Counted from the stretch's first letter, positions 1 through 11,804 are shown. The stretch is 32,000 bases of DNA from Psychrobacter cryohalolentis K5 (GCF_000013905.1 NC_007969.1:1140001-1172000); one strand, 5' to 3'. A program made the numbers and translations. The notes: generated by a model from the sequence alone, not told the origin.

Positions 1-648
1 ACAGCACTAATGACGCTCTTTTTAGTAGTGATGGCAGTATCTTTAATGGTCGTCACTAAAAAAATCAACGAAGCAACGCAAGCTGAAAAAGAACGTAGTT
101 CAGAGATCTTGGATATTTGTACTGGTATTAAAGACGACCCTACTTTAAAGAATCAGCTCATTACCGTAGATTGTAAAGAGAACCGTATTAACTTTGGTGA
201 AGCAGGTCGCTTTGGGCATAACGATTACCGGTTGAATGCAGAGGGTATAAAGGCTTTAAGTGCTTTAGTTCCTGTTGTCTTGGAAGCGGCTAATAGTGAA
301 AACGGCAAAAAATGGTTTAAACAGATTGTGATTGAAGGCTTTACAGATACCGATGGATCATATTTATATAACCTGAATTTAAGCTTGCGTCGTTCGGAGT
401 GGGTGATGTGTAGCTTATTGGATCCCACATTTAATCAAGAGCTCACTTTAACTGACGCGCAAAAAAACCAAATCAAACAGCTGTTTCTAGCTGGAGGTGT
501 ATCGTTTAATTCAGCAAAAGACAGTAAAGAAGCTTCGCGCCGTGTAGAACTAAGAATGCAGTTTTATGGCTTAAAAGAAAAAGACAGTGCTGAGGCGCAG
601 CCTATTTTTGTTTCTGCCCCTATTGAAACCTGTCAGCTGGCAAGGTAA
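1..648 (+). CDS. zorB: ZorB-like MotB/OmpA-family membrane protein (stator-type subunit of type I Zorya); the 5' end runs off the window
   Basis: The frame is open from nt 1 (TAL precedes the first Met at 10). It has one hydrophobic helix (LMTLFLVVMAVSLMVV), then OmpA/MotB-type peptidoglycan-binding signatures GFTDTDGSYLYNLNLSLRRSEWV and SRRVELRM. zorC- and zorD-like genes follow directly. Confidence 0.8.
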   Translation, partial: TALMTLFLVVMAVSLMVVTKKINEATQAEKERSSEILDICTGIKDDPTLKNQLITVDCKENRINFGEAGRFGHNDYRLNAEGIKALSALVPVVLEAANSENGKKWFKQIVIEGFTDTDGSYLYNLNLSLRRSEWVMCSLLDPTFNQELTLTDAQKNQIKQLFLAGGVSFNSAKDSKEASRRVELRMQFYGLKEKDSAEAQPIFVSAPIETCQLAR

Positions 649-650
649 AT

Positions 651-2075
651 GTGATGAGTATCGCTATATTAAAGCAGAGGCTGAATCAGAGTGTCAATAA
701 TTTCTCTGACCCTGCCCAAATACATAATAAATTTGCCAAACCGACCAAATTAATTAAGACGTTAGCAATCATTGAACGTAAGTTTGATGAGATGGAGAGT
801 ATTCAGCCTATCGAAGAAAAAATTGTTAACTCAATTTTAAAACTAGAAAAGCATGGTACCGACTATCTAACAAAACGTGATTGGAAGAACCTATCGTGGT
901 CACTCAGTAAAAAGCTGCTAAGTTATGAAGATAAAATACTCTTCACCTTCAAAGGTAGCGAGTTCATTGAACAATTTAGCAAAATTGATCCTGAGTTACT
1001 AAAGGTTGTTTATTTCCCTTTGCTTTATAGTTATTTTGCGGTAGAACAAGCTGAAATAAATAAACGGCCCAATAACTGGATTCAGCTCAGGAATATCTTA
1101 AATACCAATCGGTCTACGTTATTTCAAGCCACTCTTAAGCCTAAAAAATGGCTTACTACGTTAACGGAGCATCCTGAAGTGCTCTCGCTAGATCCTTCTA
1201 AAAGATTTATTCGTGACTTTTTATACAATAGCGATGACAGTAGAGTCAGTAGTCAATTAGAAAGCTTAAGCATTGCTCCTAATAGCTGGTTTTGGGATAG
1301 CTTGATAAGCTCATCTATCAAGTCAGTCAAGACAATGAAGGAAGATGACTACTTTAAAGTGATACCACGTTTGTTACTTCTTCTAGAAAAGAATCCAATT
1401 TATACCACCGCTATTTTAACGGCTCTACTTGAACGTTATGCTTCTACCTCAAAACGTACACTTGTACATGAAGCTTTAAAGCACGTCTGTTTGACGCAAT
1501 GGGGTAACCCGCAATATGACTCAGCAGCAGGTTGGCGGAATGTAAACCCAGATACTAGAAAAATGGTGGTTCAATGGTTTGTAAGAGCAGATTTAGAAGC
1601 TTTCTTTAAATTGTTCAGCCATACAGCTGATGTCGATCGTTTTAACTATTGGATAAAGTTTATTGACAAAATTTCTTTTTCTCAGATATTTTTAGGCCCA
1701 GCTGCCGTACAATCTAGACATGCTGAGCATAGAAAGTTCAGAGAGCTTAACCGTGGCAGACTGAAAAACCTTGTAGGTTCTACTGCTAGTAATAATGCCT
1801 TTCTACTTAAAATCGATAACATCTATATTGTTGATTTTTCAGATACAGGAAATGCTTGTTATGGATATAGTACTTTTCCTTTTGACATTAATAAGAAAAA
1901 CATAGGTGTTTATGAGTTAAAGAACAAGCCGCAGTCCATCTTTAAAAGCGAGTACGGTCTAGGAATGAGTTTGAGTCATTCAGGAAATTGGGAAGCTAGA
2001 TTCGATAAAAAACTCGCTGAGTTGGGCATTTTTTCCAATCAATCCAATAGTCCAAAATACAAAAAACGTTATTAA
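651..2075 (+). CDS. zorC: ZorC-like protein (putative EH-signature-domain component of type I Zorya)
   Basis: A 474-aa soluble ORF starts 2 nt after the zorB stop (GTG 651 or ATG 654) and ends 9 nt before the Snf2 gene. Size and position fit ZorC. The C-terminal region (RHAEHRKF ... FLLKIDNIYIVDFSDTGNACYGY) is compatible with an EH-signature domain from memory only. I recognised no housekeeping family. Confidence 0.7.
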   Translation: MMSIAILKQRLNQSVNNFSDPAQIHNKFAKPTKLIKTLAIIERKFDEMESIQPIEEKIVNSILKLEKHGTDYLTKRDWKNLSWSLSKKLLSYEDKILFTFKGSEFIEQFSKIDPELLKVVYFPLLYSYFAVEQAEINKRPNNWIQLRNILNTNRSTLFQATLKPKKWLTTLTEHPEVLSLDPSKRFIRDFLYNSDDSRVSSQLESLSIAPNSWFWDSLISSSIKSVKTMKEDDYFKVIPRLLLLLEKNPIYTTAILTALLERYASTSKRTLVHEALKHVCLTQWGNPQYDSAAGWRNVNPDTRKMVVQWFVRADLEAFFKLFSHTADVDRFNYWIKFIDKISFSQIFLGPAAVQSRHAEHRKFRELNRGRLKNLVGSTASNNAFLLKIDNIYIVDFSDTGNACYGYSTFPFDINKKNIGVYELKNKPQSIFKSEYGLGMSLSHSGNWEARFDKKLAELGIFSNQSNSPKYKKRY

Positions 2076-2084
2076 AGGGCCGGT

Positions 2085-5000
2085 ATGAAATTAGCATTCT
2101 GGAAAAGAAATAAATCGGTTGAGCATGCTTCTGCAGAAAATTCAGTAGAAAGTATTGCTCTTTTACCGCTGCAATATGATGACATGGGTTTAAAGCACGG
2201 CTATACAGCTGTGGCTAAAACTGATGCGGATTTCTATTGGGAAAGCTTAACTGATGAAGAGGTTGCCTATCAGCTAGATGATAGCTATATATTGCCATGG
2301 GAAGAGTTGTTCCAGATTAAACAAGATCCTGATCATAGCGATGTCATTAATTTGCTCAACTTGCCGTTATCAAATGATTTATATCCGATAATTCGTAGTG
2401 AAAATGGGCTAAGTGATTCGAATTTCCAAATTATTCTGGATGGTTGGTGTGATAAAAATAAGGTCAAGTTTAAAGGCTCAGTCAAACGAACAGGCGCAAT
2501 TATTAGTATTACCGGTAAAGAATGTTTATTGAATGAAAGCACTTGGAAGCTATTAGAGAAAATTAAAGAATTCTCCCGTGTTACAGATAAAAATAAATCA
2601 TTAAATCAAAAATATTGGGCGCAAATACGCAGTTTGGCGAATAAAAGCGAGGCGAACTTAGATGAGTTCTTGCGTAAAACGATCGTACTTGCCCCAGAAG
2701 AGCTGCAACTTAACCTTCGTAAAAACTTAGTTAGTACAGAGTCAGTGGTAGAGGTGCAGCCTGATTTTAAAGACTCACCCTCAAATTGGCTACAAACTTT
2801 TGATAAATATAATCAAGTACAAGATGAATATACAATCAGCTTACCAGAAGGTGGTCTGGCTCACGTTATTATCGAGCCGCAAGTTAAGAGTGTACTCAAT
2901 GAAATTAAAAAGATGCCAAATCGTCGGATAGCTGGCGAGCGTGCACAGACCTTTTTACACAATCCTTTTGCTCAGTTAGGGGAGGATGCCATAGAGGTTA
3001 TATCTCCAGAGGGCTTTGAGCAATCCAAAGAAGAGGCAGAGATCTATAGCTATCGTTTGCTCATAGATAAAAATTATGATGAATTATCACATTTTAGTTC
3101 CGCTCAATTAACGTTGCATGAAATTTCAAGTAGAGCACAAGACCCTATTCTGTTAGAACTTTCAAATCTAGAGCAAGCTCAACACTTTATTGCTACTTAT
3201 GAGCGATCATCACCTGTGTTCCTATGGGCAGGTTATAGTATAGATAGAAGCAACTACTTAGATAATCAAGTAGACGAGCTGAAAAGCGATCTAGAAAAAA
3301 TTCAACAGTATGATGATGAATTGCAAGCTAGAACAGTGCTAGATTTAAGCAATTACAGCGATAGAGTGATAGGGATTGGTGAAGCTGAAAAACTGAGCTC
3401 TGACGCCATTCAAAAAGATAGTGGTGAATCCGAATGGTTACCACAGAATCTTATAGATGGGTCAGCTGACTTATCTCAATTTACTTCTGATAATACTGAT
3501 GCCACTACTGAACTACTTGAGCAACGTATCCAGCATGCAGAGGAAGAAGGCGAGAGCTTTGTTCTACATCCGGACAGCAACGTCTCCATTCCATTAGATG
3601 ATGCAAAAAAACTACTTGATGATCTGCGTGATTCAAAGACTGGGGATCCAGTTGAAAACGACATAGAGCAAGAGCAGCCAAAAGCTGATGAAACAAAGAA
3701 AAAATCTACCTTATTGATTGCCAATAATATCGATGAGGCTGACTTTACTAAGAAGCGAGCCGAGACTCTGACTTTTGATGAAAGCAACCGCCCTCAGGCC
3801 AGATTGCCATCAAGTTTTAGAAGCCAAGAATTTAGTCTAAAAACGCATCAAGAATATGGTATCGCTTGGCTACAGAACCTATATCAGTATGCACCAAATC
3901 AGGTAAGCGGCTGCTTGTTAGCAGATGATATGGGTTTAGGGAAAACTTTGCAGTTACTTTGCTTCATTGGTGAATATCTAGAAACCGCAGAAGATAAAAA
4001 ACCTGCATTAGTCGTAGCGCCAGTTTCTTTATTGGAGAACTGGGAGGCTGAAATCAATAGGTTTTTTAGTGCAAAGTTCGGAAAAGTGTTAAGTTTATAT
4101 GGCGATAACTTAAAACAGCGAAAAATACCCAAGCACCTAATATCTTCTCAATTAAGAAATGATTATGGGATAACAAATCTACTTGAAGATAATTGGTTAG
4201 GTGGTGCAGATATCGTACTGACTACTTATGAGACCATGCGAGACCTTGAGTTTTCTTTAGGGAGGGTAGATTGGAGTATCATGATATGTGATGAAGCCCA
4301 AAAAATAAAAGTGCCCACTGCAATGGTTACTAAAGCTGCTAAAGCCCAAAAAGCAGACTTTAAGATCGCTTGTACAGGCACGCCTGTAGAGAATTCACTT
4401 GTTGATCTATGGTGCTTATTTGATTTCATTCAAGAAAATCTGATGGGTTCACTTAGTGAATTTAATAAAGAGTATCGACGTCCTATTGAAAAGAAAGACG
4501 ATGAAGACAACGCGATAATAGATGAGCTTCGTCAATTGATTGAGCCACAAGTATTAAGACGTATGAAGCATGATGTCGCTGAGTTGCCAGCAAAACACGA
4601 AATTAATGATTGTAAAAATATTGAAATATCAACGCTGCAACGCACACTTTATAAACAAGTATCAAATGATTATAGAAGTTTATCTGAGCAAGGCCACAAA
4701 GGCGTTATGTTAAAAGCACTACATGACATGCGAATGATTTGTGCTCACCCCCTGAATTTTCAAGAACAAGCGACTATCAATGATTCGCCTAAAGCCGAAT
4801 GGTTAATAAACACTTTAGAGACCATAAAACAAAAAAATGAGAAGGTTATCATTTTTACTGAGTTCAGGGCTATTCAAGTGTTTTTAAAGCGGCTTCTCCT
4901 TGAGCGGTTTGGATTAAACGTTACTACAGTGAATGGGGATTCAAATACTAATAGTAGAGTAGGCTTAACGCGGCAGGGCATTATTGATAAGTTCCAAGAA

Positions 5001-5312
5001 ACGAATGGTTTCAATGTGATTATCTTATCCACTGTGGCAGTTGGCTTTGGTGTGAATATCCAAAAAGCAAACCATGTTATCCACTATACACGCAGTTGGA
5101 ACCCAGCTAAGGAAGACCAAGCGACTGATAGAGCCTACCGTATTGGTCAAGATAAAGAGGTTTACGTGTATTATCCGTCTATCGCAGCAGATGATTTTGA
5201 GACGTTTGAAATCAAACTGGATAAGCTATTATCTAGTAAGCGCAGTCTTGCTGATGATATGTTGAAACCAAACGTAGAGCTTACTCAAGAATTGATTCAG
5301 TCGATCTATTGA
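2085..5312 (+). CDS. zorD: ZorD-like Snf2/SF2 helicase-family ATPase (type I Zorya effector)
   Basis: The ORF is 1075 aa. The C-terminal ~480 aa carry ordered SF2/Snf2 motifs: LADDMGLGKT (3918-3947), DEAQ (4290-4301), TGTPVEN, and QATDRAYRIGQ (5118-5150). A long non-helicase N-terminal region precedes them. Confidence 0.85.
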   Translation: MKLAFWKRNKSVEHASAENSVESIALLPLQYDDMGLKHGYTAVAKTDADFYWESLTDEEVAYQLDDSYILPWEELFQIKQDPDHSDVINLLNLPLSNDLYPIIRSENGLSDSNFQIILDGWCDKNKVKFKGSVKRTGAIISITGKECLLNESTWKLLEKIKEFSRVTDKNKSLNQKYWAQIRSLANKSEANLDEFLRKTIVLAPEELQLNLRKNLVSTESVVEVQPDFKDSPSNWLQTFDKYNQVQDEYTISLPEGGLAHVIIEPQVKSVLNEIKKMPNRRIAGERAQTFLHNPFAQLGEDAIEVISPEGFEQSKEEAEIYSYRLLIDKNYDELSHFSSAQLTLHEISSRAQDPILLELSNLEQAQHFIATYERSSPVFLWAGYSIDRSNYLDNQVDELKSDLEKIQQYDDELQARTVLDLSNYSDRVIGIGEAEKLSSDAIQKDSGESEWLPQNLIDGSADLSQFTSDNTDATTELLEQRIQHAEEEGESFVLHPDSNVSIPLDDAKKLLDDLRDSKTGDPVENDIEQEQPKADETKKKSTLLIANNIDEADFTKKRAETLTFDESNRPQARLPSSFRSQEFSLKTHQEYGIAWLQNLYQYAPNQVSGCLLADDMGLGKTLQLLCFIGEYLETAEDKKPALVVAPVSLLENWEAEINRFFSAKFGKVLSLYGDNLKQRKIPKHLISSQLRNDYGITNLLEDNWLGGADIVLTTYETMRDLEFSLGRVDWSIMICDEAQKIKVPTAMVTKAAKAQKADFKIACTGTPVENSLVDLWCLFDFIQENLMGSLSEFNKEYRRPIEKKDDEDNAIIDELRQLIEPQVLRRMKHDVAELPAKHEINDCKNIEISTLQRTLYKQVSNDYRSLSEQGHKGVMLKALHDMRMICAHPLNFQEQATINDSPKAEWLINTLETIKQKNEKVIIFTEFRAIQVFLKRLLLERFGLNVTTVNGDSNTNSRVGLTRQGIIDKFQETNGFNVIILSTVAVGFGVNIQKANHVIHYTRSWNPAKEDQATDRAYRIGQDKEVYVYYPSIAADDFETFEIKLDKLLSSKRSLADDMLKPNVELTQELIQSIY

Positions 5313-5443
5313 GTAAGACTTTTAACAAGGGGCTGGGGTTATATTCAATCCTTATCTACTACAGCTCCTAATTCTGAGTGGCTGTTGTGGTAGTACACTA
5401 AATTTGGACTGTATTCAAGAGAAGATATATTACATACGAAAAA

Positions 5444-5451
5444 GCCAGACA
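5444..5451. repeat. Target-site duplication (left copy) GCCAGACA of the IS256-family insertion
   Basis: An identical 8-mer directly abuts both ends of the element (5444-5451 and 6821-6828). Confidence 0.8.
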
Positions 5452-6820
5452 GAGGGTATCCCGAATTCTGTGTAACTGCCATTTAGATTAAATGCTTACT
5501 GATACGATCATCAAACATAATCATAAAGCGATTAAGGGCAGACGTCCAGTTACGAATCGGCATCGACCACTTTTTAGACGCCTGCTGGGTTGCCAGATAT
5601 ACTACCTTAAACGCTGCCTGATCAGACGGGAACACCTTACGCTTATTCACTGCCGTACGAATCACACTGTTTAGCGACTCAATAGCATTGGTGGTATATA
5701 TGACTTTTCTGATGTCTTTAGGGTAACCAAAGAACACCGTTAAGCCTTCCCAGTTATTGCGCCAAGACTTGATGACATGCGGATACTTATCGCCCCACAC
5801 TTCATCAAAGTGCTCAAGATTGGCCTCTGCTATCTCTATAGTATCAGCACCATAAATTGCCTTTAAATCAGCCGCTACTGCCTTTTTGTCCGTCCATGGT
5901 ACGAACTTCATTGAATAACGCACCATGTGCACGATACACAGCTGAACCTGAGCGTTGGGGTAAACAGTATTGATGGCATCAGGAAAGCCCTTTAAACCGT
6001 CGACACAGGCAATGAGTATGTCTTGTACCCCGCGGTTTTGCAATTCAGTGAGAACGCCTAGCCAGAACTTAGCGCCCTCATTCTCTGATAACCACATACC
6101 CAGCAGCTCTTTTTTACCGTTAAGTCCCACCCCTAGCGCCAGATAGATAGCCTTGTTGATGATCTGCTTATCTTGACGTACTTTAACAACAATACAGTCC
6201 AAATAGACGATAGGATAAACACTGCTCAGTGGTCTATTCTGCCACGCAGTGATGTCTTCCAAGATGTTGTCAGTGACTCTTGAGACAAGAGAGCTTGAGA
6301 TGTCGACGTCGTAAAGCTCTTTGATGGTCTCGACAATCTCGGTGGTCGTTTGGCCCTTGGCATATGAGCGAGGATCAGCAAGTGTCTGGGAGACACTTGC
6401 CCGAAGCGCAAGACGGAAGGCTATGCCTGTAGTGGAATATGATTTTATCGTCAAGCCCTGAGATACGGGTTTGATGCTTACGCACTAAGGTGGGCTCAAA
6501 AGCGCCGTCACGGTCTCTTGGGGTGGAGATCTCAAGCTCCCCTGTGTCACTACGGACTGTCTTTTTAGTGTGCCCATTGCGCTTATTAGGTTTATCCGCC
6601 TTTTCATGCTTAGGATAGCCAAGATGGTCTTCCATCTCAGCTTCTAGGGCAGTATCGATAAAGGATTGCATGAGTTGCTTTTGGAAGTCTTTGATGTCAT
6701 CAAAGCTGTTCATGCTACCAGCCATCTGCTGGGCCAGTTTCTTGATGTCAGTTTGGTTAGTCATTGCTTATTCTTCGGTTAGTGGATTATAAGCAGTTAC
6801 ACAAAGTTTGGGAAAGTCTC
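5452..6820 (-). mobile_element. IS256-family insertion sequence, 1369 bp
   Basis: Imperfect ~28-bp terminal inverted repeats are present: GAGGGTATCCCGAATTCTGTGTAACTGC at 5452-5479, and the reverse complement of 6793-6820, GAGACTTTCCCAAACTTTGTGTAACTGC. An 8-bp direct repeat flanks the element. The internal gene is an IS256/mutator-type transposase. Confidence 0.85.
5483..6764 (-). pseudogene. IS256-family (mutator-type) transposase split into two overlapping reading frames (6764-6375 and 6454-5483)
   Basis: The N-terminal ORF ends ...FEPTLVRKHQTRISGLDDKII followed by out-of-family residues and a stop. The second frame resumes at ...RSYAKGQTTTEIVETIKELYDVDIS...AWQNRPL...YLDCIVVKVR... with DDE-type core blocks. 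The second frame has only a TTG at its head. The frames differ by +1. Confidence 0.7.
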
Positions 6821-6828
6821 GCCAGACA
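6821..6828. repeat. Target-site duplication (right copy) GCCAGACA
   Basis: It is identical to 5444-5451 and lies immediately outside the right IS terminus. Confidence 0.8.
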
Positions 6829-6847
6829 ACCTAAGCTGTCTGGCTTT
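6821..6847 (-). terminator. Hairpin of an intrinsic terminator, separated from its minus-strand T-tract by the IS insertion
   Basis: GCCAGACA-ACCTAAGC-TGTCTGGC is followed by TTT. Removing the IS and one duplication copy restores AAAGCCAGACA/TGTCTGGCTTT (11-bp stem) with TTTTT on the minus strand, which is now at 5440-5444. Confidence 0.6.
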
Positions 6848-6862
6848 AAAATTGTGAATAAC

Positions 6863-7180
6863 TTATCTATGATTATGTTCCCGCCATACAGCATGTTCAC
6901 ATACCTCACAGCACCAACGCTCTTTTGCTCGCATATATGCAATATCTGCTGGTATCTGTAAAGGGCACACATAACCACAGTACTCGCATCGCACATCATC
7001 TAAATAAGCAAAACACTCACCGATTGTCTCGAACAGTACTTGAGTGCTAATCTCATACTTTTCACAAACGATTTCTACATGCGCGATATAATCACCTTTA
7101 TTATCATATGCCCAGTAGTCCTCACAGATCTTTAGATCTCGTGCGTTCTGCGTCATATTAGGCTGAAGCTTTACACTCAT
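6863..7180 (-). CDS. Small hypothetical protein with a C-terminal Cys-rich (zinc-ribbon-like) motif
   Basis: ATG at 7180 sits 6 nt after GAGGAG, and the longer ORF start at 7237 would overlap the upstream gene. The C-terminus reads CEYCGYVC...CCEVCEH. I recognised no family. Confidence 0.55.
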   Translation of the reverse strand: MSVKLQPNMTQNARDLKICEDYWAYDNKGDYIAHVEIVCEKYEISTQVLFETIGECFAYLDDVRCEYCGYVCPLQIPADIAYMRAKERWCCEVCEHAVWREHNHR

Positions 7181-7190
7181 CACATTCTCC

Positions 7191-7484
7191 TCAATAGCCG
7201 TCATAATCAGACTGCGGTAGTAGCTCATAAAGCTCACTTTGAAGCTTGCTGCTCATATCCTCTACAAAGTACCCATCCTGAGCATCTAAGCGCTTCTGTA
7301 CCCATATACGCAGTGCCATATCATTATCAAAGCAGCGCTTCACTCCTAAGAAGCGTGCGAGGTTATGATCCGATGAAACATACAACTCACGCATCAATGC
7401 ATTAGCAATCTTATTAGCATCCTCACTAATTGCACCGTCGGGTTTAAACTCACCAAACAGCTCCTCGTAATTGATAATTTTCAT
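7191..7484 (-). CDS. Hypothetical 97-aa protein, translationally coupled to the integrase
   Basis: Its ATG overlaps the integrase stop (ATGA at 7481-7484). It is same-strand and tightly packed with the next ORF. I recognised no family. Confidence 0.55.
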   Translation of the reverse strand: MKIINYEELFGEFKPDGAISEDANKIANALMRELYVSSDHNLARFLGVKRCFDNDMALRIWVQKRLDAQDGYFVEDMSSKLQSELYELLPQSDYDGY

Positions 7485-8725
7485 TGTGACGTCTCCTTGT
7501 CAGTTTGTGAGTCCCTGATTAGTGCTTCACCTTCAGAGCTATTAGATGCGCTGGTTAGCTTCTCCTTGCTCGCTAGTAGCAAGTTATCCATTGCCGAGCC
7601 ATCCTGTCGGGTGATATCAGGTACATAACGGCTATATACCCGAAACAGCATCTCCGTACTACTGTGACCCATCTGCCGAGCGATCCATTCAGGATTCTCA
7701 CCAGCAGCCAGCCATAGCGTCGCTGCCGTATGCCGAGTCTGATAAGCCCGCCTATGTTTCAGACCGAGTAGGGCAAGCGTGGGTTTCCATACCCGCCGGT
7801 TCACATTGCGATACTCCATCGGATTGCCCTGTGAATTGCAAAACACAAACTCTGACTTACCAAAGGTACGCGTCTTCTGCTCTTGTAGTGCGTCATAGAC
7901 CAGTTGTGACATCGCAATATCACGTTGCGAGCCTAACGTTTTCGTTGGACCCATCTCCCCATTCACCAATGCACCGCGAATACTGATCTCACGGCGATCA
8001 AAGTTAATGCAGTCCCACTTAAGCCCATCGATCTCACTGGTACGCATCCCTGTAAAGAAGCGAATAGTGTAGTAGGGCCTATAATCAGCACGAACATGCT
8101 TTAAAATCAGCCATACCTCAGAAAGTGTAAAAGGATTCACATCCGGACGCGCTTGCTTGAGATTCTTAATATTTTTATAAGGCATCTCAAACTCATGGCG
8201 ATCCGACGCTTCTTCTAGTATCATACGAAGAAGTATCATGATCTGGTTGATCCGTGCTACTGACAGACTTGACTGACCATCTTTACCGTAACAAACTTTG
8301 GCGAGGGAGCTACGGAAGGTCAGCAAGTCTGGTTTTTTTATGGCATGTACCGCTTTGCCACCAAACTCAGGTAACAAGTACTTATCTAAAATAATCTGCG
8401 TCTTTTGCCGATAGCTTGGCCGCCATTCAATCTTCTTCTCCTCATACCAAATATCGACAAACTGTCTAAAGGTTGGATTACGACTGATACAAGCTTCCGC
8501 TCTATCGGCCAGTGCTGTCATCTCTTTTAGACGAGTACTCTTCGGAAAGTAGGCGCCATAGTCGAAGATGCCTAGGGTTATTTCTGCGTCTATTTTTTTC
8601 AAAACAGTCGCTAATTTTCTTCTGTTAGCTGGGTTATCTTCTAAGCTAGTCTTTTCTCGACAACGTATACCTAGGTAGTAGAAGTCGGCAATTAGTTTGC
8701 CAAACCGTCCTTGTATAGTAGCCAT
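7481..8725 (-). CDS. int: Tyrosine-type site-specific integrase (phage integrase family with an N-terminal arm-binding-type domain)
   Basis: The C-terminal catalytic region contains ...FFTGMRTSEI..., ...HRRAYQTRHTAATLWLAAGENPEWIARQMGHSSTEMLFRVYSRY (R, H-x-x-R, H, Y pattern). The N-terminus MATIQGRFGKLIADFYYLGIRCREKT is typical of island integrases. The gene lies ~1.1 kb from a tRNA 3' end. Confidence 0.9.
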   Translation of the reverse strand: MATIQGRFGKLIADFYYLGIRCREKTSLEDNPANRRKLATVLKKIDAEITLGIFDYGAYFPKSTRLKEMTALADRAEACISRNPTFRQFVDIWYEEKKIEWRPSYRQKTQIILDKYLLPEFGGKAVHAIKKPDLLTFRSSLAKVCYGKDGQSSLSVARINQIMILLRMILEEASDRHEFEMPYKNIKNLKQARPDVNPFTLSEVWLILKHVRADYRPYYTIRFFTGMRTSEIDGLKWDCINFDRREISIRGALVNGEMGPTKTLGSQRDIAMSQLVYDALQEQKTRTFGKSEFVFCNSQGNPMEYRNVNRRVWKPTLALLGLKHRRAYQTRHTAATLWLAAGENPEWIARQMGHSSTEMLFRVYSRYVPDITRQDGSAMDNLLLASKEKLTSASNSSEGEALIRDSQTDKETSQ

Positions 8726-8741
8726 GATAAATCTCCTTCTA

Positions 8742-8957
8742 TTATTGAAGTGCCATACCGTTGATAGCGCTCATAACCGGCTTGCACATATCCTCTTCGA
8801 TACGCTCCCATACATACAGAATCTTACGGCCACCAAAAGGGCGTATGTAGTGAATGTTTTCAATTAAAACGGTGTCTTTCATTTGATTGCGGATAGTACG
8901 TGCGTCGTACTTGATGCGTTCAGCTAACTCATCAGTTGTTAAATAAGTATTGCTCAT
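8742..8957 (-). CDS. AlpA/excisionase-like small HTH DNA-binding protein
   Basis: The 71-aa ORF lies directly upstream of int on the same strand. The LTTDELAERIKYDARTIRNQMKD helix-turn-helix is typical of AlpA/Xis-type island regulators. Confidence 0.7.
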   Translation of the reverse strand: MSNTYLTTDELAERIKYDARTIRNQMKDTVLIENIHYIRPFGGRKILYVWERIEEDMCKPVMSAINGMALQ

Positions 8958-9059
8958 GGTATTTACCTCTTTTCAGTTATTAAGTCATCGCATTAAGTGA
9001 TAGAATAAAAATTATTTTATCAACTTGTAAGAATGCACCTTGAAGTAATCAGTAATTAT

Positions 9060-9078
9060 TTACCCGCTTAAAGGTAAT
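9060..9078. promoter_or_regulatory. Putative operator, TTACC-N9-GGTAA inverted repeat (site 1)
   Basis: TTACCCGCTTAAAGGTAAT lies in the divergent xis/int and HTH intergenic region. It is 15/19 identical to site 2. Confidence 0.4.
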
Positions 9079-9130
9079 TAATAACCGATTTGTGTACTAT
9101 ATTATCTTTTTACCTCAATGTAAAGCATTT

Positions 9131-9149
9131 TTACCCGAAAAGAGGTAAT
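9131..9149. promoter_or_regulatory. Putative operator, TTACC-N9-GGTAA inverted repeat (site 2), overlapping the RBS of the HTH gene
   Basis: TTACCCGAAAAGAGGTAAT ends 4 nt before the ATG at 9154. Confidence 0.4.
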
Positions 9150-9153
9150 AATT

Positions 9154-9378
9154 ATGATTGTGTCTAAACTCCCTGTTATTCTGGCAGAGAAAAAACTGCG
9201 CGTAGCAGATGTTGTAAGGGCAACAGGCATGAGTAAATCAACACTTCATAAGCTATACAATGAAGAGTCATCAAGAATTGATTTCAATACTATCGACCAG
9301 TTATGTGAGTTTTTAGACGTACAGGTAGGTGACTTATTTATTTATACGCCAAATCCTAAAGATGATGAAGAGTCTTGA
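9154..9378 (+). CDS. XRE/Cro-type helix-turn-helix transcriptional regulator (74 aa)
   Basis: KLRVADVVRATGMSKSTLHKLYNEESSRIDFNTIDQLCEFLDVQVGDLF matches the small YozG/Cro-like HTH pattern. AGAGG lies 7 nt upstream of the ATG. Confidence 0.75.
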   Translation: MIVSKLPVILAEKKLRVADVVRATGMSKSTLHKLYNEESSRIDFNTIDQLCEFLDVQVGDLFIYTPNPKDDEES

Positions 9379-9496
9379 AGATATACAGAGTTGAAAAAGA
9401 TGCGCAGAGGAATAAGTGGCAGAGCCTTATATATATGACGTTCCAAAGCATGAAATTAAGGTTGGGGTTATTTTTTATATCTACTTTTTCATGATT

Positions 9497-9515
9497 TGGT
9501 CACGTTTTGGTCACG
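9497..9515 (+). repeat. Octamer repeat cluster 1: TGGTCACG-TTT-TGGTCACG
   Basis: This 19-mer repeats exactly at 9654-9672, with 11-bp unit phasing. Confidence 0.8.
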
Positions 9516-9549
9516 CTATGAGCTTAATTTAAAAAAGCATTGGAAAAGG

Positions 9550-9588
9550 AAAAACGATGCTAAGAAAATATTTCTTAGCATCGTTTTT
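9550..9588. terminator. Bidirectional intrinsic-terminator-like hairpin
   Basis: AAAAACGATGCTAAGAAA-ATA-TTTCTTAGCATCGTTTTT forms a perfect 18-bp stem including A/T tracts. Confidence 0.6.
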
Positions 9589-9642
9589 TATAAAGATAAG
9601 AGTAATAAGTTGGGGTCAATTATAGAATCAGTGTTTATATGG

Positions 9643-9672
9643 TGGACACGAAATGGTCACGTTTTGGTCACG
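9643..9672 (+). repeat. Octamer repeat cluster 2: TGGACACG-AAA-TGGTCACG-TTT-TGGTCACG
   Basis: Three units start at 9643, 9654 and 9665 (11-bp period). The last two are identical to cluster 1. Confidence 0.8.
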
Positions 9673-9766
9673 GTGCTGATTTTTGAGCTTTTAATATATT
9701 AGCTAAACTTAGCAATTAGACTGAATAGCTCATGCTGAAAAACGCTACAGCCCCTGAAAGACGGAC

Positions 9767-9799
9767 AAAAAAAAGCCTCACTGTTATGTGAGGCTTTTT
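9767..9799 (-). terminator. Intrinsic terminator downstream of tRNA-Gly
   Basis: AAAAGCCTCAC-TGTTAT-GTGAGGCTTTT. On the minus strand the stem is followed by a run of 8 T. Confidence 0.75.
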
Positions 9800-9806
9800 A
9801 AGTATT

Positions 9807-9881
9807 TGGAGCGGGAAAAGAGATTCGAACTCTCGACCCCAACCTTGGCAAGGTTATGCTCTACCACTGAGCTATTCCCGC
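9807..9881 (-). tRNA. tRNA-Gly (anticodon GCC), 75 nt with encoded CCA
   Basis: The reverse complement folds as a cloverleaf: acceptor GCGGGAA/TTCCCGC, D-stem GCTC/GAGC, anticodon stem TAACC/GGTTG with loop TTGCCAA, and T-arm GAGAG-TTCGAAT-CTCTT. It is nearly identical to the E. coli tRNA-Gly(GCC) as I recall it. Confidence 0.95.
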
Positions 9882-10133
9882 TAATTATCAATTAACTATC
9901 GTCAGTTGATGATGGCGTATTATACGCAGTTTTCTGAGAGTGTCAACAGCTAGTATGAAAAAAAGCAAAAGATAGTAGATTGGCATATTATCGCATCGTC
10001 TATCTATGTTATAACAGATTGTTATAATCTATATTCCAAAAGCTTTGCTTTCTATAAATAGGCTGGAATGCAGTTTTATAATTACTTTTATCATATTTAT
10101 GATTAATAAACATAACACTTAAGGATAAGTAGT

Positions 10134-11804
10134 ATGAGTCAACAATATACCATCGCTGATTATTTGTTTGATCGTGTCGCAGAAGCAGGTGCGTCAGAGG
10201 TATTTGGCGTACCTGGTGATTTTAATCTCACGTTTTTAGATAATGTGCTTGCCTCAGATAAATTGCGCTGGGTAGGTAATACCAATGAGTTAAATGCTGG
10301 TTACGCAGCAGATGGCTATGCACGTGAGCGTGGGTTTGCGGCGATGGTGACGACCTTTGGAGTGGGTGAGCTGTCCGCTATCAATGCCACCGCAGGCTCG
10401 TTTGCTGAGTATGCGCCAGTGCTTCATATCGTAGGCGCGCCAAGTACAGCATTACAAGATTCAAAGCGTCGCATCCATCACTCACTTGGTGATGGCGTGT
10501 TCAATCATTTTATTAAAATGGTAGAACCGGTTACGGTAGCACGGGCGCAAATTACGCCTGAAAATGCTGCCTCAGAGATTGACCGCGTGATTCGCGTGAT
10601 TCTCAAAAAGCATCGCCCAGGCTATTTATTACTATCACCAGATGTAGCAAAAACGCCAATTTATCCGCCGACGACTAAACTTATCGATAGTGAGGAAGAT
10701 ATTACTAGCCAAGCGGCGTTAGCAGACTTTAAACAAGCACTGATAGAATTTTTACCCAATAAAACCACGACGCTCATGGCAGATTTGATGGTGCATCGTT
10801 TGGGTCTGCAAAATCAGCTTAAGGCTTTGATTGCCGATACTGACATTCCTTATACGACGTTATCGTGGGGCAAAACCTTGCTTGATGAAAATAGTGAGCG
10901 TTGGGCAGGCACCTATGCAGGCGTGGCATCGCGTCCTGTGGTTAAGGATATGGTCGAAAACTGTGAGTGTTTGATAAAAATTGGTGTGCAATATACTGAT
11001 ACTACTACTGCAGGTTTTAGCCAAGATATTGATGAAAACGTGGTGGTTGACCTGCATTATGAGCGTGCGAGTATCGCAGGCAAAAACTTTGCGCCCATTG
11101 CCCTAAAAGATGCTCTAAAAACACTGCATGAGGTAATGACCTCAGATATTAATATTGTACCGAAGCAGTTCTGTGAAGAGGTAAAGCAGCATGAGCAACA
11201 TGGCAAGGATAATGAGGCCATTCGTCAAGATGACTTATGGCATATCATTGCTGATGCGCTTGATGATAAAAACTTGGTGTTTTCAGAACAAGGTACTGCC
11301 TATTTTGGTATCAGTGATGTGCGTCTGCCAGAAGGCGTGACGTCTTATGGTCAGCCGATGTGGGGTTCTATTGGTTATACTTTGCCTGCGAGTTTAGGTG
11401 GTGCCATTGCTTCACCGCATAAGCGTAGTATTTTACTCATTGGTGATGGTTCTGCTTTATTAACCATTCAAGAAATTGCGGTAATGATTCAAGAACGTAT
11501 CAACCCGGTGATTGTACTGATTAACAATGATGGCTATACCGTTGAGCGCGCGATTCATGGTGAAAACCAGTACTATAACGACATTCCTAAATGTGACTGG
11601 CAGTTGATGCCAAAAGCGTTTGGTGCCAATGCTAATAATAGTCTGCTACTAAAAGCAGAGACAGCAGGCGAGTTAAAAGATGCTCTCAAGCAAGCGGCGG
11701 CTGCAAAAGACAAGCTGGTTATGTTGGAGGTTATCGCTGGCAAGCATGATATCCCGCCATTACTTGCAGATATCAGTGCCGCGCTGAAGCCAAAAAATGA
11801 TTAA
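10134..11804 (+). CDS. ipdC: Thiamine-diphosphate-dependent alpha-keto-acid decarboxylase (indolepyruvate/phenylpyruvate/pyruvate decarboxylase family)
   Basis: The N-terminus YTIADYLFDRVAEAGASEVFGVPGDFNLTFLD matches this family, as does the TPP-binding motif GDGSALLTIQEIAVMIQERINPVIVLINNDGYTVER. The 556-aa length is typical of IpdC/PDC. Confidence 0.85.
   Translation: MSQQYTIADYLFDRVAEAGASEVFGVPGDFNLTFLDNVLASDKLRWVGNTNELNAGYAADGYARERGFAAMVTTFGVGELSAINATAGSFAEYAPVLHIVGAPSTALQDSKRRIHHSLGDGVFNHFIKMVEPVTVARAQITPENAASEIDRVIRVILKKHRPGYLLLSPDVAKTPIYPPTTKLIDSEEDITSQAALADFKQALIEFLPNKTTTLMADLMVHRLGLQNQLKALIADTDIPYTTLSWGKTLLDENSERWAGTYAGVASRPVVKDMVENCECLIKIGVQYTDTTTAGFSQDIDENVVVDLHYERASIAGKNFAPIALKDALKTLHEVMTSDINIVPKQFCEEVKQHEQHGKDNEAIRQDDLWHIIADALDDKNLVFSEQGTAYFGISDVRLPEGVTSYGQPMWGSIGYTLPASLGGAIASPHKRSILLIGDGSALLTIQEIAVMIQERINPVIVLINNDGYTVERAIHGENQYYNDIPKCDWQLMPKAFGANANNSLLLKAETAGELKDALKQAAAAKDKLVMLEVIAGKHDIPPLLADISAALKPKND

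What the first reader, a model, noticed from the sequence alone, without database searches (positions are those of the whole stretch)
1..5312. Type I Zorya anti-phage system (zorB-zorC-zorD; zorA expected just upstream of the window)
Three same-strand genes are packed with 2-nt and 9-nt gaps. The first is a single-pass membrane protein with a MotB/OmpA peptidoglycan-binding C-domain (GFTDTDGSYLYNLNLSLRRSEWV, SRRVELRM), and its frame is open to the window edge. The second is a 474-aa soluble protein with no housekeeping resemblance. The third is a 1075-aa protein whose C-terminal half carries Snf2/SF2 motifs in order: LADDMGLGKT 3918-3947, DEAQ 4290-4301, TGTPVEN, QATDRAYRIGQ 5118-5150. A MotB-like gene followed by a mid-size EH-signature-type protein and a giant Snf2 helicase is the ZorB-ZorC-ZorD order of type I Zorya, a flagellar-stator-like defence system. 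Its position on a tRNA-linked island beside an IS fits defence cargo. This is the most likely system of interest in the window.
Basis: partly seen in the sequence, partly recalled or inferred. Interest (0 to 1): 0.85.

Follow-up and report, generated by a model that had tools for sequence, protein, structure and literature searches.

The report
Type I Zorya anti-phage genes zorBCD
The first 5.3 kb of the window hold three of the four genes (zorB, zorC, zorD) of a type I Zorya anti-phage system from a Psychrobacter-like bacterium; this is a well-characterised kind of system, so the find is correct but ordinary, apart from a naturally shortened ZorC.

Summary
Window 1-648 is zorB, missing about 28 N-terminal codons at the window edge. 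Window 651-2075 is zorC (474 aa, EH_Signature domain). Window 2085-5312 is zorD (1075 aa, Snf2 ATPase). All three match PADLOC type I Zorya models over their full length (E 8e-89, 2.5e-255, 0). All three also match the solved E. coli Zorya structures (8QYD ZorB, 8R68 ZorC, 8QY7 ZorD). The functional residues mapped in E. coli are kept. zorA lies outside the window, but it sits directly upstream of zorB in all 11 related loci that hold upstream DNA. The genes lie on a tRNA-Gly-linked integrase island, 140 nt from an IS256-family insertion that does not disrupt them. Two differences from the E. coli model are worth recording. This ZorC lacks the C-terminal globular domain that is essential in E. 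coli ZorC, as do about 20% of family representatives. Its signature Glu is Asp, which is rare (4 of 138). ZorC and ZorD score below NCBI's equivalog cut-offs, and so does ZorB, though the copy scored here is cut at the window edge. Verdict: a new member of a known kind, of low to moderate interest.

The parts
1..648 (+). zorB, 5'-truncated by the window edge (about 28 codons missing, including the channel Asp26). It encodes a TM helix followed directly by an OmpA-like peptidoglycan-binding domain.
   Evidence: PADLOC ZorB1 PDLC00611 gives E 8.3e-89 over profile positions 29-239 of 240. Pfam OmpA scores 29.3 bits. PDB 8qyd_F (E. coli ZorB) gives E 1.3e-77 over residues 29-242. The PG-binding residues Y151, N152, L155 and R159 and all four disulfide cysteines of EcZorB are conserved. 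Window base 1 corresponds to L001 base 9351, inside a 243-aa zorB.
651..2075 (+). zorC, 474 aa, an EH-signature DNA-binding protein. This is a short form that ends about 27 residues after the conserved Trp. It has a basic KYKKRY tail and lacks the C-terminal globular domain of E. coli ZorC. The start is GTG at 651 or ATG at 654.
   Evidence: PADLOC ZorC1 PDLC00614 gives E 2.5e-255 over positions 1-465 of 465. Pfam EH_Signature gives 2.8e-31. PDB 8r68 ZorC gives 6.2e-43, aligned only to residues 10-471 of 560. Family alignments place window D329, R330, W334, H443 and W447 at EcZorC D332, R335, W339, H443 and W458, and window D395 at EcZorC E400.
2085..5312 (+). zorD, 1075 aa. It has an N-terminal regulatory domain and a C-terminal Snf2-type ATPase/nuclease domain, with Walker A LADDMGLGKT at 3918-3947, the DEAQ box at 4290-4301 and motif VI QATDRAYRIGQ at 5118-5150.
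   Evidence: PADLOC ZorD1 PDLC00632 gives E 0 and 1443.5 bits over positions 3-1093 of 1101. Pfam SNF2-rel_dom gives 2.1e-59 and Helicase_C 5.9e-18. PDB 8qy7 (E. coli ZorD) gives 1.3e-247 over residues 51-1065, at 43% identity. EcZorD E651 and D730-Q733 correspond to window E656 and D736-Q739.
5452..6820 (-). IS256-family insertion sequence downstream of zorD (context, not part of Zorya). It has 28-nt imperfect terminal inverted repeats and an 8-bp target duplication, GCCAGACA, at 5444-5451 and 6821-6828. The transposase is split into two ORFs (6375-6764 and 5483-6454).
   Evidence: Pfam Transposase_mut matches profile positions 15-113 in one ORF and 110-377 in the other. The target duplication was read directly from the sequence. 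The empty site is continuous in L002.
7481..8725 (-). Tyrosine integrase of the genomic island that carries the Zorya genes (context).
   Evidence: Pfam Phage_integrase, Arm-DNA-bind_2 and Phage_int_SAM_3 all match. The same zorD-integrase-tRNA arrangement is found in Psychrobacter sp. L003: window 6821-10495 aligns to L003 17337-21012 at 86%.
9807..9881 (-). tRNA-Gly(GCC), the likely integration site and right-hand boundary of the island. Housekeeping genes follow to the right.
   Evidence: ARAGORN found the tRNA. The genes to the right are a TPP enzyme, GlpM, a Na+/H+ exchanger and ABC transporter components, and none of those scanned hits PADLOC.

Best explanation
The region holds the last three genes of a four-gene type I Zorya anti-phage operon (zorA-zorB-zorC-zorD) on a tRNA-Gly-linked integrative island in a Psychrobacter-like (Moraxellaceae) genome. 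The mechanism is inferred by homology to the E. coli system (Hu et al. 2024, PMC11946911). ZorA5B2 forms an ion-driven inner-membrane rotary motor. The ZorB periplasmic domain anchors it to peptidoglycan, and it senses envelope perturbation when a phage injects its DNA. Rotation of the long ZorA cytoplasmic tail recruits and activates ZorC and ZorD. ZorC is an EH-signature DNA-binding protein. ZorD is an autoinhibited Snf2 ATPase with nuclease activity, and it degrades the incoming phage DNA locally without killing the cell. What is shown here: the identity and intactness of zorB (as far as the window goes), zorC and zorD; conservation of the residues that are essential in E. coli; and zorA directly upstream in every relative examined. 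What is inferred: that zorA is present and intact in this genome, that the system is expressed and that it protects against phage. One step must differ from the E. coli model. This ZorC has no C-terminal globular domain, so DNA binding must rest on the EH core alone, possibly with help from its short basic tail.
For: PADLOC type I Zorya models match all three proteins over their full length, and the matching Pfam domains score above their gathering cut-offs. The solved E. coli Zorya proteins are the top PDB hits for each: 8qyd ZorB 1.3e-77, 8r68 ZorC 6.2e-43 and 8qy7 ZorD 1.3e-247. NCBIfam's best hit for each protein is the type I Zorya ZorB1, ZorC or ZorD model. The residues shown to be essential by mutagenesis in PMC11946911 are conserved: the ZorB PG-binding residues and four cysteines; ZorC D332, R335, W339, H443 and W458; and ZorD E651 and the DEAQ box. 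The genes are packed with 2-nt and 9-nt gaps. In 11 of 11 related loci with upstream DNA, a gene aligning to E. coli ZorA at about 34-36% identity lies immediately upstream of zorB; in ten of these it is a single alignment of about 650-730 residues (the called ORF is 691 aa in L001 and L003), and in L002 it is frameshifted. The two closest relatives with an intact zorA (L001, L003) keep ZorB D26, and L001 ZorA keeps T147 and S184. All three window ORFs align end to end, without frameshifts, to their P. immobilis counterparts at 98%, 89% and 95% amino-acid identity. The IS256 insertion lies 140 nt beyond the zorD stop and has a clean target duplication.
Against: zorA and the first ~28 codons of zorB, including the essential Asp26, lie outside the window, so neither completeness nor function can be shown here. 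One close relative (L002, P. glacincola) has frameshifted zorA and zorD, so decay of this locus does occur, unless those are assembly errors. ZorC lacks the C-terminal globular domain whose deletion abolishes DNA binding and defence in E. coli ZorC. It also carries Asp at the signature Glu position. All three proteins score below NCBIfam's equivalog cut-offs: ZorC 230.9 against 490, ZorD 1131.5 against 1500, and ZorB 376.3 against 400 with the N-terminus missing. No member of this Moraxellaceae clade turned up among tested systems in the papers I searched.
Confidence: 0.92

Rival explanations
1. The locus is a decaying or incomplete Zorya remnant. zorB, zorC and zorD are intact, but zorA (outside the window) is missing, frameshifted or interrupted, for example by another copy of the neighbouring IS. 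In that case the genes no longer provide defence.
For: zorA cannot be seen in the window. The P. glacincola relative L002 has one frameshift in zorA and two in zorD. An IS256-family element sits 140 nt downstream of zorD, which shows IS activity in this island.
Against: The three visible genes are full-length with no frameshifts and are 89-98% identical to their intact P. immobilis counterparts. The functional residues are conserved. Ten of the 11 relatives with upstream DNA show a zorA with no frameshift in the alignment to E. coli ZorA.
Confidence: 0.1
2. The Snf2 protein is DpdE of a Dpd (7-deazaguanine DNA modification and restriction) cluster, or a housekeeping RapA-like Snf2 ATPase. The MotB-like gene would then be an ordinary OmpA/MotB-family envelope protein that happens to lie nearby.
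For: One PADLOC model labelled DpdE (PDLC02854) matches ZorD at 4.3e-254 over residues 51-1064. Snf2 domains are shared by many systems.
Against: The ZorD1 model scores far higher (1443 against 844 bits). The PDLC02854 match covers nearly the same residues, at about the same score, as E. coli ZorD itself (8qy7: 51-1065, 828 bits). I infer that this model also captures E. coli-type ZorD-like sequences. NCBIfam's curated DpdE scores only 36.6 bits against a cut-off of 500, and RapA scores 54.5 against 576. None of the window ORFs I scanned against Pfam or PADLOC is a dpd gene. The ZorD N-terminal domain, the adjacent EH-signature ZorC and the ZorB1-specific match all point to Zorya.
Confidence: 0.01
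3. This is a functionally distinct Zorya I sub-variant. Because ZorC lacks the C-terminal domain and has Asp for the signature Glu, ZorC here would serve as an adaptor between the ZorA tail and ZorD rather than as a DNA binder, or it would bind DNA in a different way.
For: The ~85-aa C-terminal domain is absent in all Psychrobacter and Acinetobacter relatives, and about 20% of family representatives are short (27 of 138). Asp at the Glu400 position occurs in only 4 of 138. In E. coli the C-terminal domain is required for DNA binding. No extra domain appears in ZorD (1075 aa against 1080) or in the relatives' ZorA (691 against 729).
Against: The rest of the EH electrostatic network (D, R, W, H, W) is strictly conserved, which suggests the same core activity. 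Glu to Asp is conservative. A basic C-terminal tail (KYKKRY) could supply non-specific DNA contacts. Nothing here tests biochemistry.
Confidence: 0.3

Closest known systems
E. coli type I Zorya (EcZorI; E. coli E24377A/NCTC9026 zorA1-zorB1-zorC-zorD; PDB 8QYD, 8R68, 8QY7; Doron et al. 2018 from my own knowledge; Hu et al. 2024, PMC11946911)
   Same: The gene order and tight packing are the same. ZorB is 61% identical, with the same TM helix fused directly to the PG-binding domain, the same PG-binding residues and both disulfide pairs. ZorD is 43% identical over nearly its full length, covering both the N-terminal domain and the Snf2 domain, with E651 and the DEAQ box kept. The ZorC core is 28% identical, with D332, R335, W339, H443 and W458 kept.
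   Different: ZorC is 474 aa rather than 560 aa and has no C-terminal globular domain, which is essential in EcZorC. Its signature Glu400 is Asp395. ZorA in the closest relatives is 691 aa rather than 729 aa and lacks the Ca2+-site residues E86 and E89 (N and K in L001). The proteins score below the NCBIfam equivalog cut-offs built around the E. coli type. The host is a Psychrobacter-like member of the Moraxellaceae, with about 38% GC across the zor genes.
PADLOC ZorA1/ZorB1/ZorC1/ZorD1 sub-family models PDLC00598, PDLC00611, PDLC00614 and PDLC00632
   Same: The matches are end to end with very high scores: ZorC 845 bits over 1-465 of 465, ZorD 1443 bits, and the relatives' ZorA 834 bits. This short-ZorC sub-family is therefore already represented in a 2023 defence-system database.
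   Different: Nothing of substance differs. The exact ZorC sequence is not on record in the public protein collection. The nearest genome in the species set is P. immobilis, at about 93% nucleotide identity.
Flagellar stator MotAB and other 5:2 motors (ExbBD, TolQR)
   Same: ZorB has the single N-terminal TM helix and an OmpA-like PG-binding domain. The relatives' ZorA has a weak MotA_ExbB match, and their ZorB keeps the universal channel Asp.
   Different: The PG-binding domain follows the TM helix with no plug or linker region. The partner genes are ZorC and ZorD rather than flagellar or Ton/Tol genes. The only Pfam hit is the generic OmpA domain, and the specific hits are all ZorB.
Type II Zorya (zorA2-zorB2-zorE)
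   Same: It shares the ZorAB motor module. ZorB also hits the ZorB2 model weakly (1.8e-10).
   Different: The effectors here are ZorC plus ZorD, not the HNH nickase ZorE. In P. immobilis (L001) a separate type II Zorya lies immediately downstream of this type I system, but the window has an IS256 element at the corresponding place.

Membership tests
Type I Zorya (ZorABCD) | ZorA: a MotA/ExbB-like pentameric membrane protein with a long helical cytoplasmic tail, encoded directly upstream of zorB. | not testable with these tools
   The gene lies outside the window. Indirect support: in 11 of 11 related loci with upstream DNA, zorA sits immediately upstream of zorB. L001 and L003 ZorA (691 aa) match PADLOC ZorA1 PDLC00598 at 1.6e-251 and 2.8e-250. 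The exact source contig could not be found.
Type I Zorya (ZorABCD) | ZorB: an N-terminal TM helix fused to an OmpA-like PG-binding domain, with the PG-binding residues and two disulfide pairs. | tested here: met
   PADLOC ZorB1 gives 8.3e-89 and Pfam OmpA scores above its cut-off. PDB 8qyd_F gives 1.3e-77. Y151, N152, L155 and R159 and C68, C86, C165 and C240 of EcZorB are all conserved.
Type I Zorya (ZorABCD) | ZorB channel aspartate (Asp26 in EcZorB). | not testable with these tools
   The window begins at the codon equivalent to EcZorB residue 29. The closest relatives L001 and L003 have D26.
Type I Zorya (ZorABCD) | ZorC: an EH_Signature domain (PF15611) with the Glu/His signature and its electrostatic network. 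| tested here: met
   Pfam EH_Signature scores 109.7 bits against a cut-off of 27.5, and PADLOC ZorC1 matches over its full length. His, Arg, both Trp residues and Asp332 are conserved. The signature Glu is replaced by Asp395, which keeps the acidic character but occurs in only 4 of 138 family representatives.
Type I Zorya (ZorABCD) | ZorD: a large protein with an N-terminal domain and a C-terminal Snf2 ATPase carrying the DEAQ box. | tested here: met
   PADLOC ZorD1 scores 1443 bits. SNF2-rel_dom and Helicase_C both match. PDB 8qy7 gives 1.3e-247 over residues 51-1065. E656 and D736-E737-A738-Q739 are conserved.
Type I Zorya (ZorABCD) | Co-directional, tightly packed zorB-zorC-zorD gene order. 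| tested here: met
   The gaps are 2 nt and 9 nt on the same strand. The order is identical in E. coli E24377A and in 12 related loci.
Type I Zorya (ZorABCD) | Experimentally demonstrated anti-phage protection. | not testable with these tools
   This needs plaque assays. No paper on a Psychrobacter Zorya test was found.
E. coli-type ZorI (NCBIfam equivalogs NF041788, NF041789, NF041790) | A score above the curated equivalog cut-off for each protein. | tested here: not met
   ZorB1 scores 376.3 against 400 (with the N-terminus missing), ZorC 230.9 against 490, and ZorD 1131.5 against 1500. These remain the best hits by far, but this clade is more divergent than NCBI's equivalog definition allows.
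E. coli-type ZorI (NCBIfam equivalogs NF041788, NF041789, NF041790) | A ZorC C-terminal globular domain (EcZorC residues ~480-560), required for DNA binding and defence in E. coli. | tested here: not met
   The window ZorC ends 27 residues after the conserved Trp, against 102 in EcZorC. No separate ORF could encode the domain, because only 9 nt separate zorC from zorD.
Dpd system (DpdE helicase) | A DpdE equivalog score, plus neighbouring dpdA/dpdB/dpdC genes. | tested here: not met
   NCBIfam DpdE scores 36.6 against 500. The neighbours are zorB and zorC. One PADLOC model labelled DpdE matches the same span as E. coli ZorD, but at 844 bits against 1443 for ZorD1.
RapA (RNA polymerase-associated Snf2 ATPase) | A RapA equivalog score. 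| tested here: not met
   NF003426 scores 54.5 bits against a cut-off of 576, and only over the Helicase_C region.

The most novel reading that the evidence does not exclude
The short-ZorC clade found here (and in Acinetobacter and about 20% of ZorC representatives) is a fully active type I Zorya, even though it lacks the C-terminal globular domain that is indispensable for DNA binding and defence in E. coli ZorC, and has Asp in place of the signature Glu. If so, the current model of ZorC as a two-part DNA binder does not generalise. In these systems, DNA engagement or ZorA-tail coupling would be done by the EH core alone. The swappable C-terminal third of ZorC seen among Psychrobacter strains would then be a specificity or counter-defence-evasion module.
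Probability: 0.45. Interest if true: 0.4.

Novelty: new member of a known kind. Interest (0 to 1): 0.22.

Why it matters
On its own this adds another correctly recognised type I Zorya locus, in a cold-adapted genus (Psychrobacter) where the system has not been studied experimentally as far as I could find. Its practical value is as a natural comparison for the E. coli model. A conserved Zorya I clade whose ZorC lacks the supposedly essential C-terminal domain offers a direct way to ask what that domain does. A swapped EH-module among close relatives adds a second handle on which part of ZorC is under diversifying pressure. The result also shows that NCBI's equivalog models would under-annotate this clade while PADLOC captures it.

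Tried and rejected
1. An exact look-up of the ZorC protein in the public assembly index, to find the source contig and read upstream, found nothing on record. zorA therefore had to be inferred from relatives.

2. The Dpd/DpdE reading, raised by a strong PADLOC hit labelled DpdE, was rejected. That match covers the same span as E. coli ZorD at a lower score than ZorD1, the curated NCBIfam DpdE score is negligible, and the ORFs I scanned include no dpd genes.

3. The RapA/housekeeping Snf2 and ordinary MotB/OmpA readings were rejected on family scores and context.

4. A pairwise alignment suggested that the signature His was missing from ZorC. Multiple alignments with 11 relatives and with 136 family representatives showed that it is conserved, as LSHS aligned to E. 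coli LPHT.

5. I looked for a separately encoded ZorC C-terminal domain, or a compensating extension in ZorD or ZorA, and found none.

6. I searched for the Moraxellaceae DdaA box (CGWCA-N5-TGWCG) in the window. There are no exact matches, and the two 1-mismatch hits are at chance level. The zorA promoter lies outside the window.

7. The promoter and terminator scans of 1-7000 were at or below shuffle expectation and were uninformative.

8. PADLOC scans of five large ORFs to the right of the tRNA gave no hits, so no second defence system was found among them.

Full report
**Observation**

The first 5.3 kb of the window contain three co-directional ORFs on the + strand.
- Frame 1 is open from base 1 to a stop at 646-648.
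- A 474-aa ORF runs 651-2075, and a 1075-aa ORF runs 2085-5312.
- The gaps between them are 2 nt and 9 nt.
- The first protein begins with a single strongly hydrophobic helix. The other two proteins have no comparable segment.

**Identity of the three genes**

| Window | Gene | PADLOC | Pfam | PDB, E. coli Zorya |
|---|---|---|---|---|
| 1-648 | zorB | ZorB1 PDLC00611, 8.3e-89, profile 29-239 of 240 | OmpA | 8QYD chain F, 1.3e-77, residues 29-242 |
| 651-2075 | zorC | ZorC1 PDLC00614, 2.5e-255, profile 1-465 of 465 | EH_Signature, 109.7 bits (cut-off 27.5) | 8R68, 6.2e-43 |
| 2085-5312 | zorD | ZorD1 PDLC00632, E 0, 1443.5 bits, profile 3-1093 of 1101 | SNF2-rel_dom, Helicase_C | 8QY7, 1.3e-247, residues 51-1065 |

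- Only the N-terminal ~28 residues of ZorB are cut off by the window edge.
- All the Pfam domains listed score above their gathering cut-offs.
- The ZorD match to 8QY7 covers both the N-terminal and the Snf2 domains.
- NCBIfam's best hit for each protein is the type I Zorya ZorB1, ZorC or ZorD model. RapA scores 54.5 bits against a cut-off of 576, and DpdE scores 36.6 against 500, so both are negligible.
- One PADLOC model labelled DpdE (PDLC02854) matches ZorD at 844 bits. It covers nearly the same span, at about the same score, as E. coli ZorD itself, and it scores far below ZorD1. I read this as a model that also captures ZorD-like sequences, not as evidence for a Dpd system.

**Functional residues**

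I fetched the E. coli E24377A zorA1-zorB1-zorC-zorD locus (L013) and aligned it. I then mapped the residues that Hu et al. 2024 (PMC11946911) showed to be essential.
- **ZorB** (61% identity): the PG-binding residues Y151, N152, L155 and R159 and all four disulfide cysteines are conserved.
- **ZorD** (43% identity): E651 and the DEAQ box D730-Q733 correspond to window E656 and D736-Q739.
- **ZorC** (28% identity): D332, R335, W339 and W458 are conserved.
- **ZorC His443:** a pairwise alignment seemed to lose H443. Multiple alignments with 11 relatives and with 136 family representatives place window H443 (LSHS) at E. coli H443 (LPHT).
- **ZorC Glu400:** the signature Glu400 is Asp395 here. Asp at this position occurs in only 4 of 138 aligned sequences, and these include the window itself.

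**The missing zorA**

The exact ZorC sequence is not in the public assembly index, so the source contig could not be extended.

A scan of species-representative genomes found 12 related loci. The closest are Psychrobacter: P. immobilis L001 at ~93% nucleotide identity over window 1-5317, then P. glacincola, Psychrobacter spp. and P. urativorans. Acinetobacter follows at ~70%.

In all 11 loci that include upstream DNA, a gene aligning to E. coli ZorA at about 34-36% identity lies directly upstream of zorB. The called ORF is 691 aa in L001 and L003.
- L001 and L003 ZorA match PADLOC ZorA1 PDLC00598 at 1.6e-251 and 2.8e-250.
- L001 and L003 ZorB carries the channel Asp26, and L001 ZorA keeps the selectivity-filter residues T147 and S184.
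- Window base 1 corresponds to base 85 of a 243-codon zorB.

zorA is therefore very probably just outside the window, but this is an inference. One relative (L002) has one frameshift in zorA and two in zorD, so decay of the locus, or assembly error, is possible.

**How it most likely works**

This is inferred from homology to the E. coli system.
- ZorA5B2 is an ion-driven 5:2 rotary motor in the inner membrane, and ZorB's dimeric periplasmic domain binds peptidoglycan.
- Envelope perturbation during phage DNA injection activates ion flow and rotation of the long ZorA tail.
- The rotating tail recruits ZorC, which binds DNA through its EH domain, and ZorD.
- ZorD is an autoinhibited Snf2 ATPase whose C-terminal domain has ATP-dependent nuclease activity. 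It degrades the incoming DNA near the entry site, giving direct rather than abortive defence.

The conservation of the mapped residues supports each of these steps here. None of them was tested experimentally.

**How it differs from the E. coli model**

- **No ZorC C-terminal domain.** ZorC is 474 aa against 560 aa. It ends 27 residues after the conserved Trp, against 102 in EcZorC, and finishes with a short basic tail (KYKKRY).
  - In E. coli, deleting that domain abolishes both DNA binding and defence.
  - The domain is absent from all Psychrobacter and Acinetobacter relatives and from 27 of 138 family sequences.
  - Several PADLOC ZorC models are 426-467 positions long. The short form is thus a recurrent natural class, not a truncation.
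  - No compensating ORF or extension exists: the zorC-zorD gap is 9 nt, ZorD is 1075 aa against 1080, and the relatives' ZorA is 691 aa against 729.
- **Glu to Asp at the signature position**, as described above.
- **Below NCBIfam's equivalog cut-offs.** ZorC scores 230.9 against 490 and ZorD 1131.5 against 1500. Standard NCBI naming rules would probably not call these proteins Zorya.

**Context**

- zorD is followed, after 139 nt, by an IS256-family element at 5452-6820. It has 28-nt inverted repeats and an 8-bp target duplication, GCCAGACA. The empty site is continuous in L002. The transposase is split into two ORFs in different frames.
- Next come two small unannotated ORFs, a tyrosine integrase (7481-8725, -), a possible excisionase-like ORF, a small HTH ORF and tRNA-Gly(GCC) (9807-9881, -).
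- To the right of the tRNA the genes are housekeeping: a TPP enzyme, GlpM, a Na+/H+ exchanger, DsbA, lipid-synthesis genes and ABC transporter components. None of those scanned hits PADLOC.
- GC is ~37-40% across zorB-zorD and ~41-46% over most of the housekeeping genes to the right of the tRNA.
- Psychrobacter sp. L003 has the same zorD-integrase-tRNA-Gly arrangement.

The IS does not interrupt them.

**Verdict**

The locus is a new member of a well-characterised kind of system. The sub-family is already represented in PADLOC, and only the sequence and host are new.

Interest is low to moderate. The one lead worth following is that this clade naturally lacks the ZorC C-terminal domain and has a variable EH module, which offers a test of the current ZorC model.

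Noticed in passing
L005 and L006 (P. urativorans, Psychrobacter sp. R86515) zorC; corresponds to window 1607-2169: ZorC is a mosaic among close Psychrobacter relatives. Residues 1-318 are 86-91% identical to the window's ZorC, but residues 319 to the end, which form the EH-signature core, are only 33% identical. That is as divergent as E. coli ZorC. The flanking zorB and zorD stay at ~88-92% nucleotide identity. It looks like a recombinational swap of the EH module.
   Followed up: partly
L001 16242-19341 (P. immobilis), immediately downstream of zorD: A complete type II Zorya follows the type I Zorya in tandem: zorA2 at 3.5e-89, zorB2 at 6.2e-85 and zorE at 4.2e-79. The window has the IS256 element at the corresponding position.
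   Followed up: partly
L003 2900-6642 and L013 (E. coli E24377A) 1-5186: Type I restriction-modification genes (methylase and specificity subunit) lie divergently just upstream of zorA in Psychrobacter sp. L003, and the same is true in E. coli E24377A. This may be a recurrent RM-Zorya I pairing. The window's own upstream region is unknown.
   Followed up: no
L002 7176-9249 and 11435-14654 (P. glacincola 1447): zorA is split by one frameshift and zorD by two, while zorB and zorC are intact. This is either a decaying Zorya locus or indel errors in that assembly.
   Followed up: no
window 5483-6764 (-): The IS256-family transposase is split into two overlapping ORFs, 6375-6764 and 5483-6454. The second is in the +1 frame relative to the first. 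This suggests an inactivating 1-nt indel or a sequencing error rather than a typical -1 programmed frameshift.
   Followed up: partly
L004 6966-6980, L007 6919-6933, L003 6822-6836 (1 mismatch); ~200-350 nt upstream of zorA: Matches to the Moraxellaceae DdaA (WYL activator) box CGWCA-N5-TGWCG lie upstream of zorA in some relatives: perfect matches in L004 and L007, and one mismatch in L003. This fits the report that DdaA regulates some Zorya systems (PMC12392091). The other loci have none, and the window's promoter region is not available.
   Followed up: partly
window 9496-9515 and 9653-9672: The 18-nt sequence GGTCACGTTTTGGTCACG occurs twice, ~155 nt apart, in the AT-rich stretch between the small HTH gene (9154-9378) and tRNA-Gly. 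The copies could be integrase arm-type or regulator binding sites. I read them by eye and did not test them against chance.
   Followed up: no
window 6863-7484 (-) and 8742-8957 (-): Two small ORFs (124 aa, Cys-rich, and 97 aa) lie between the IS and the integrase, and a 71-aa ORF lies just upstream of the integrase. None has a Pfam or NCBIfam hit. The stretch 6821-7447, which covers the first two ORFs, is conserved in L002 and L003 (about 85-86% nucleotide identity). The 71-aa ORF is in the position of an excisionase or AlpA-like gene.
   Followed up: partly
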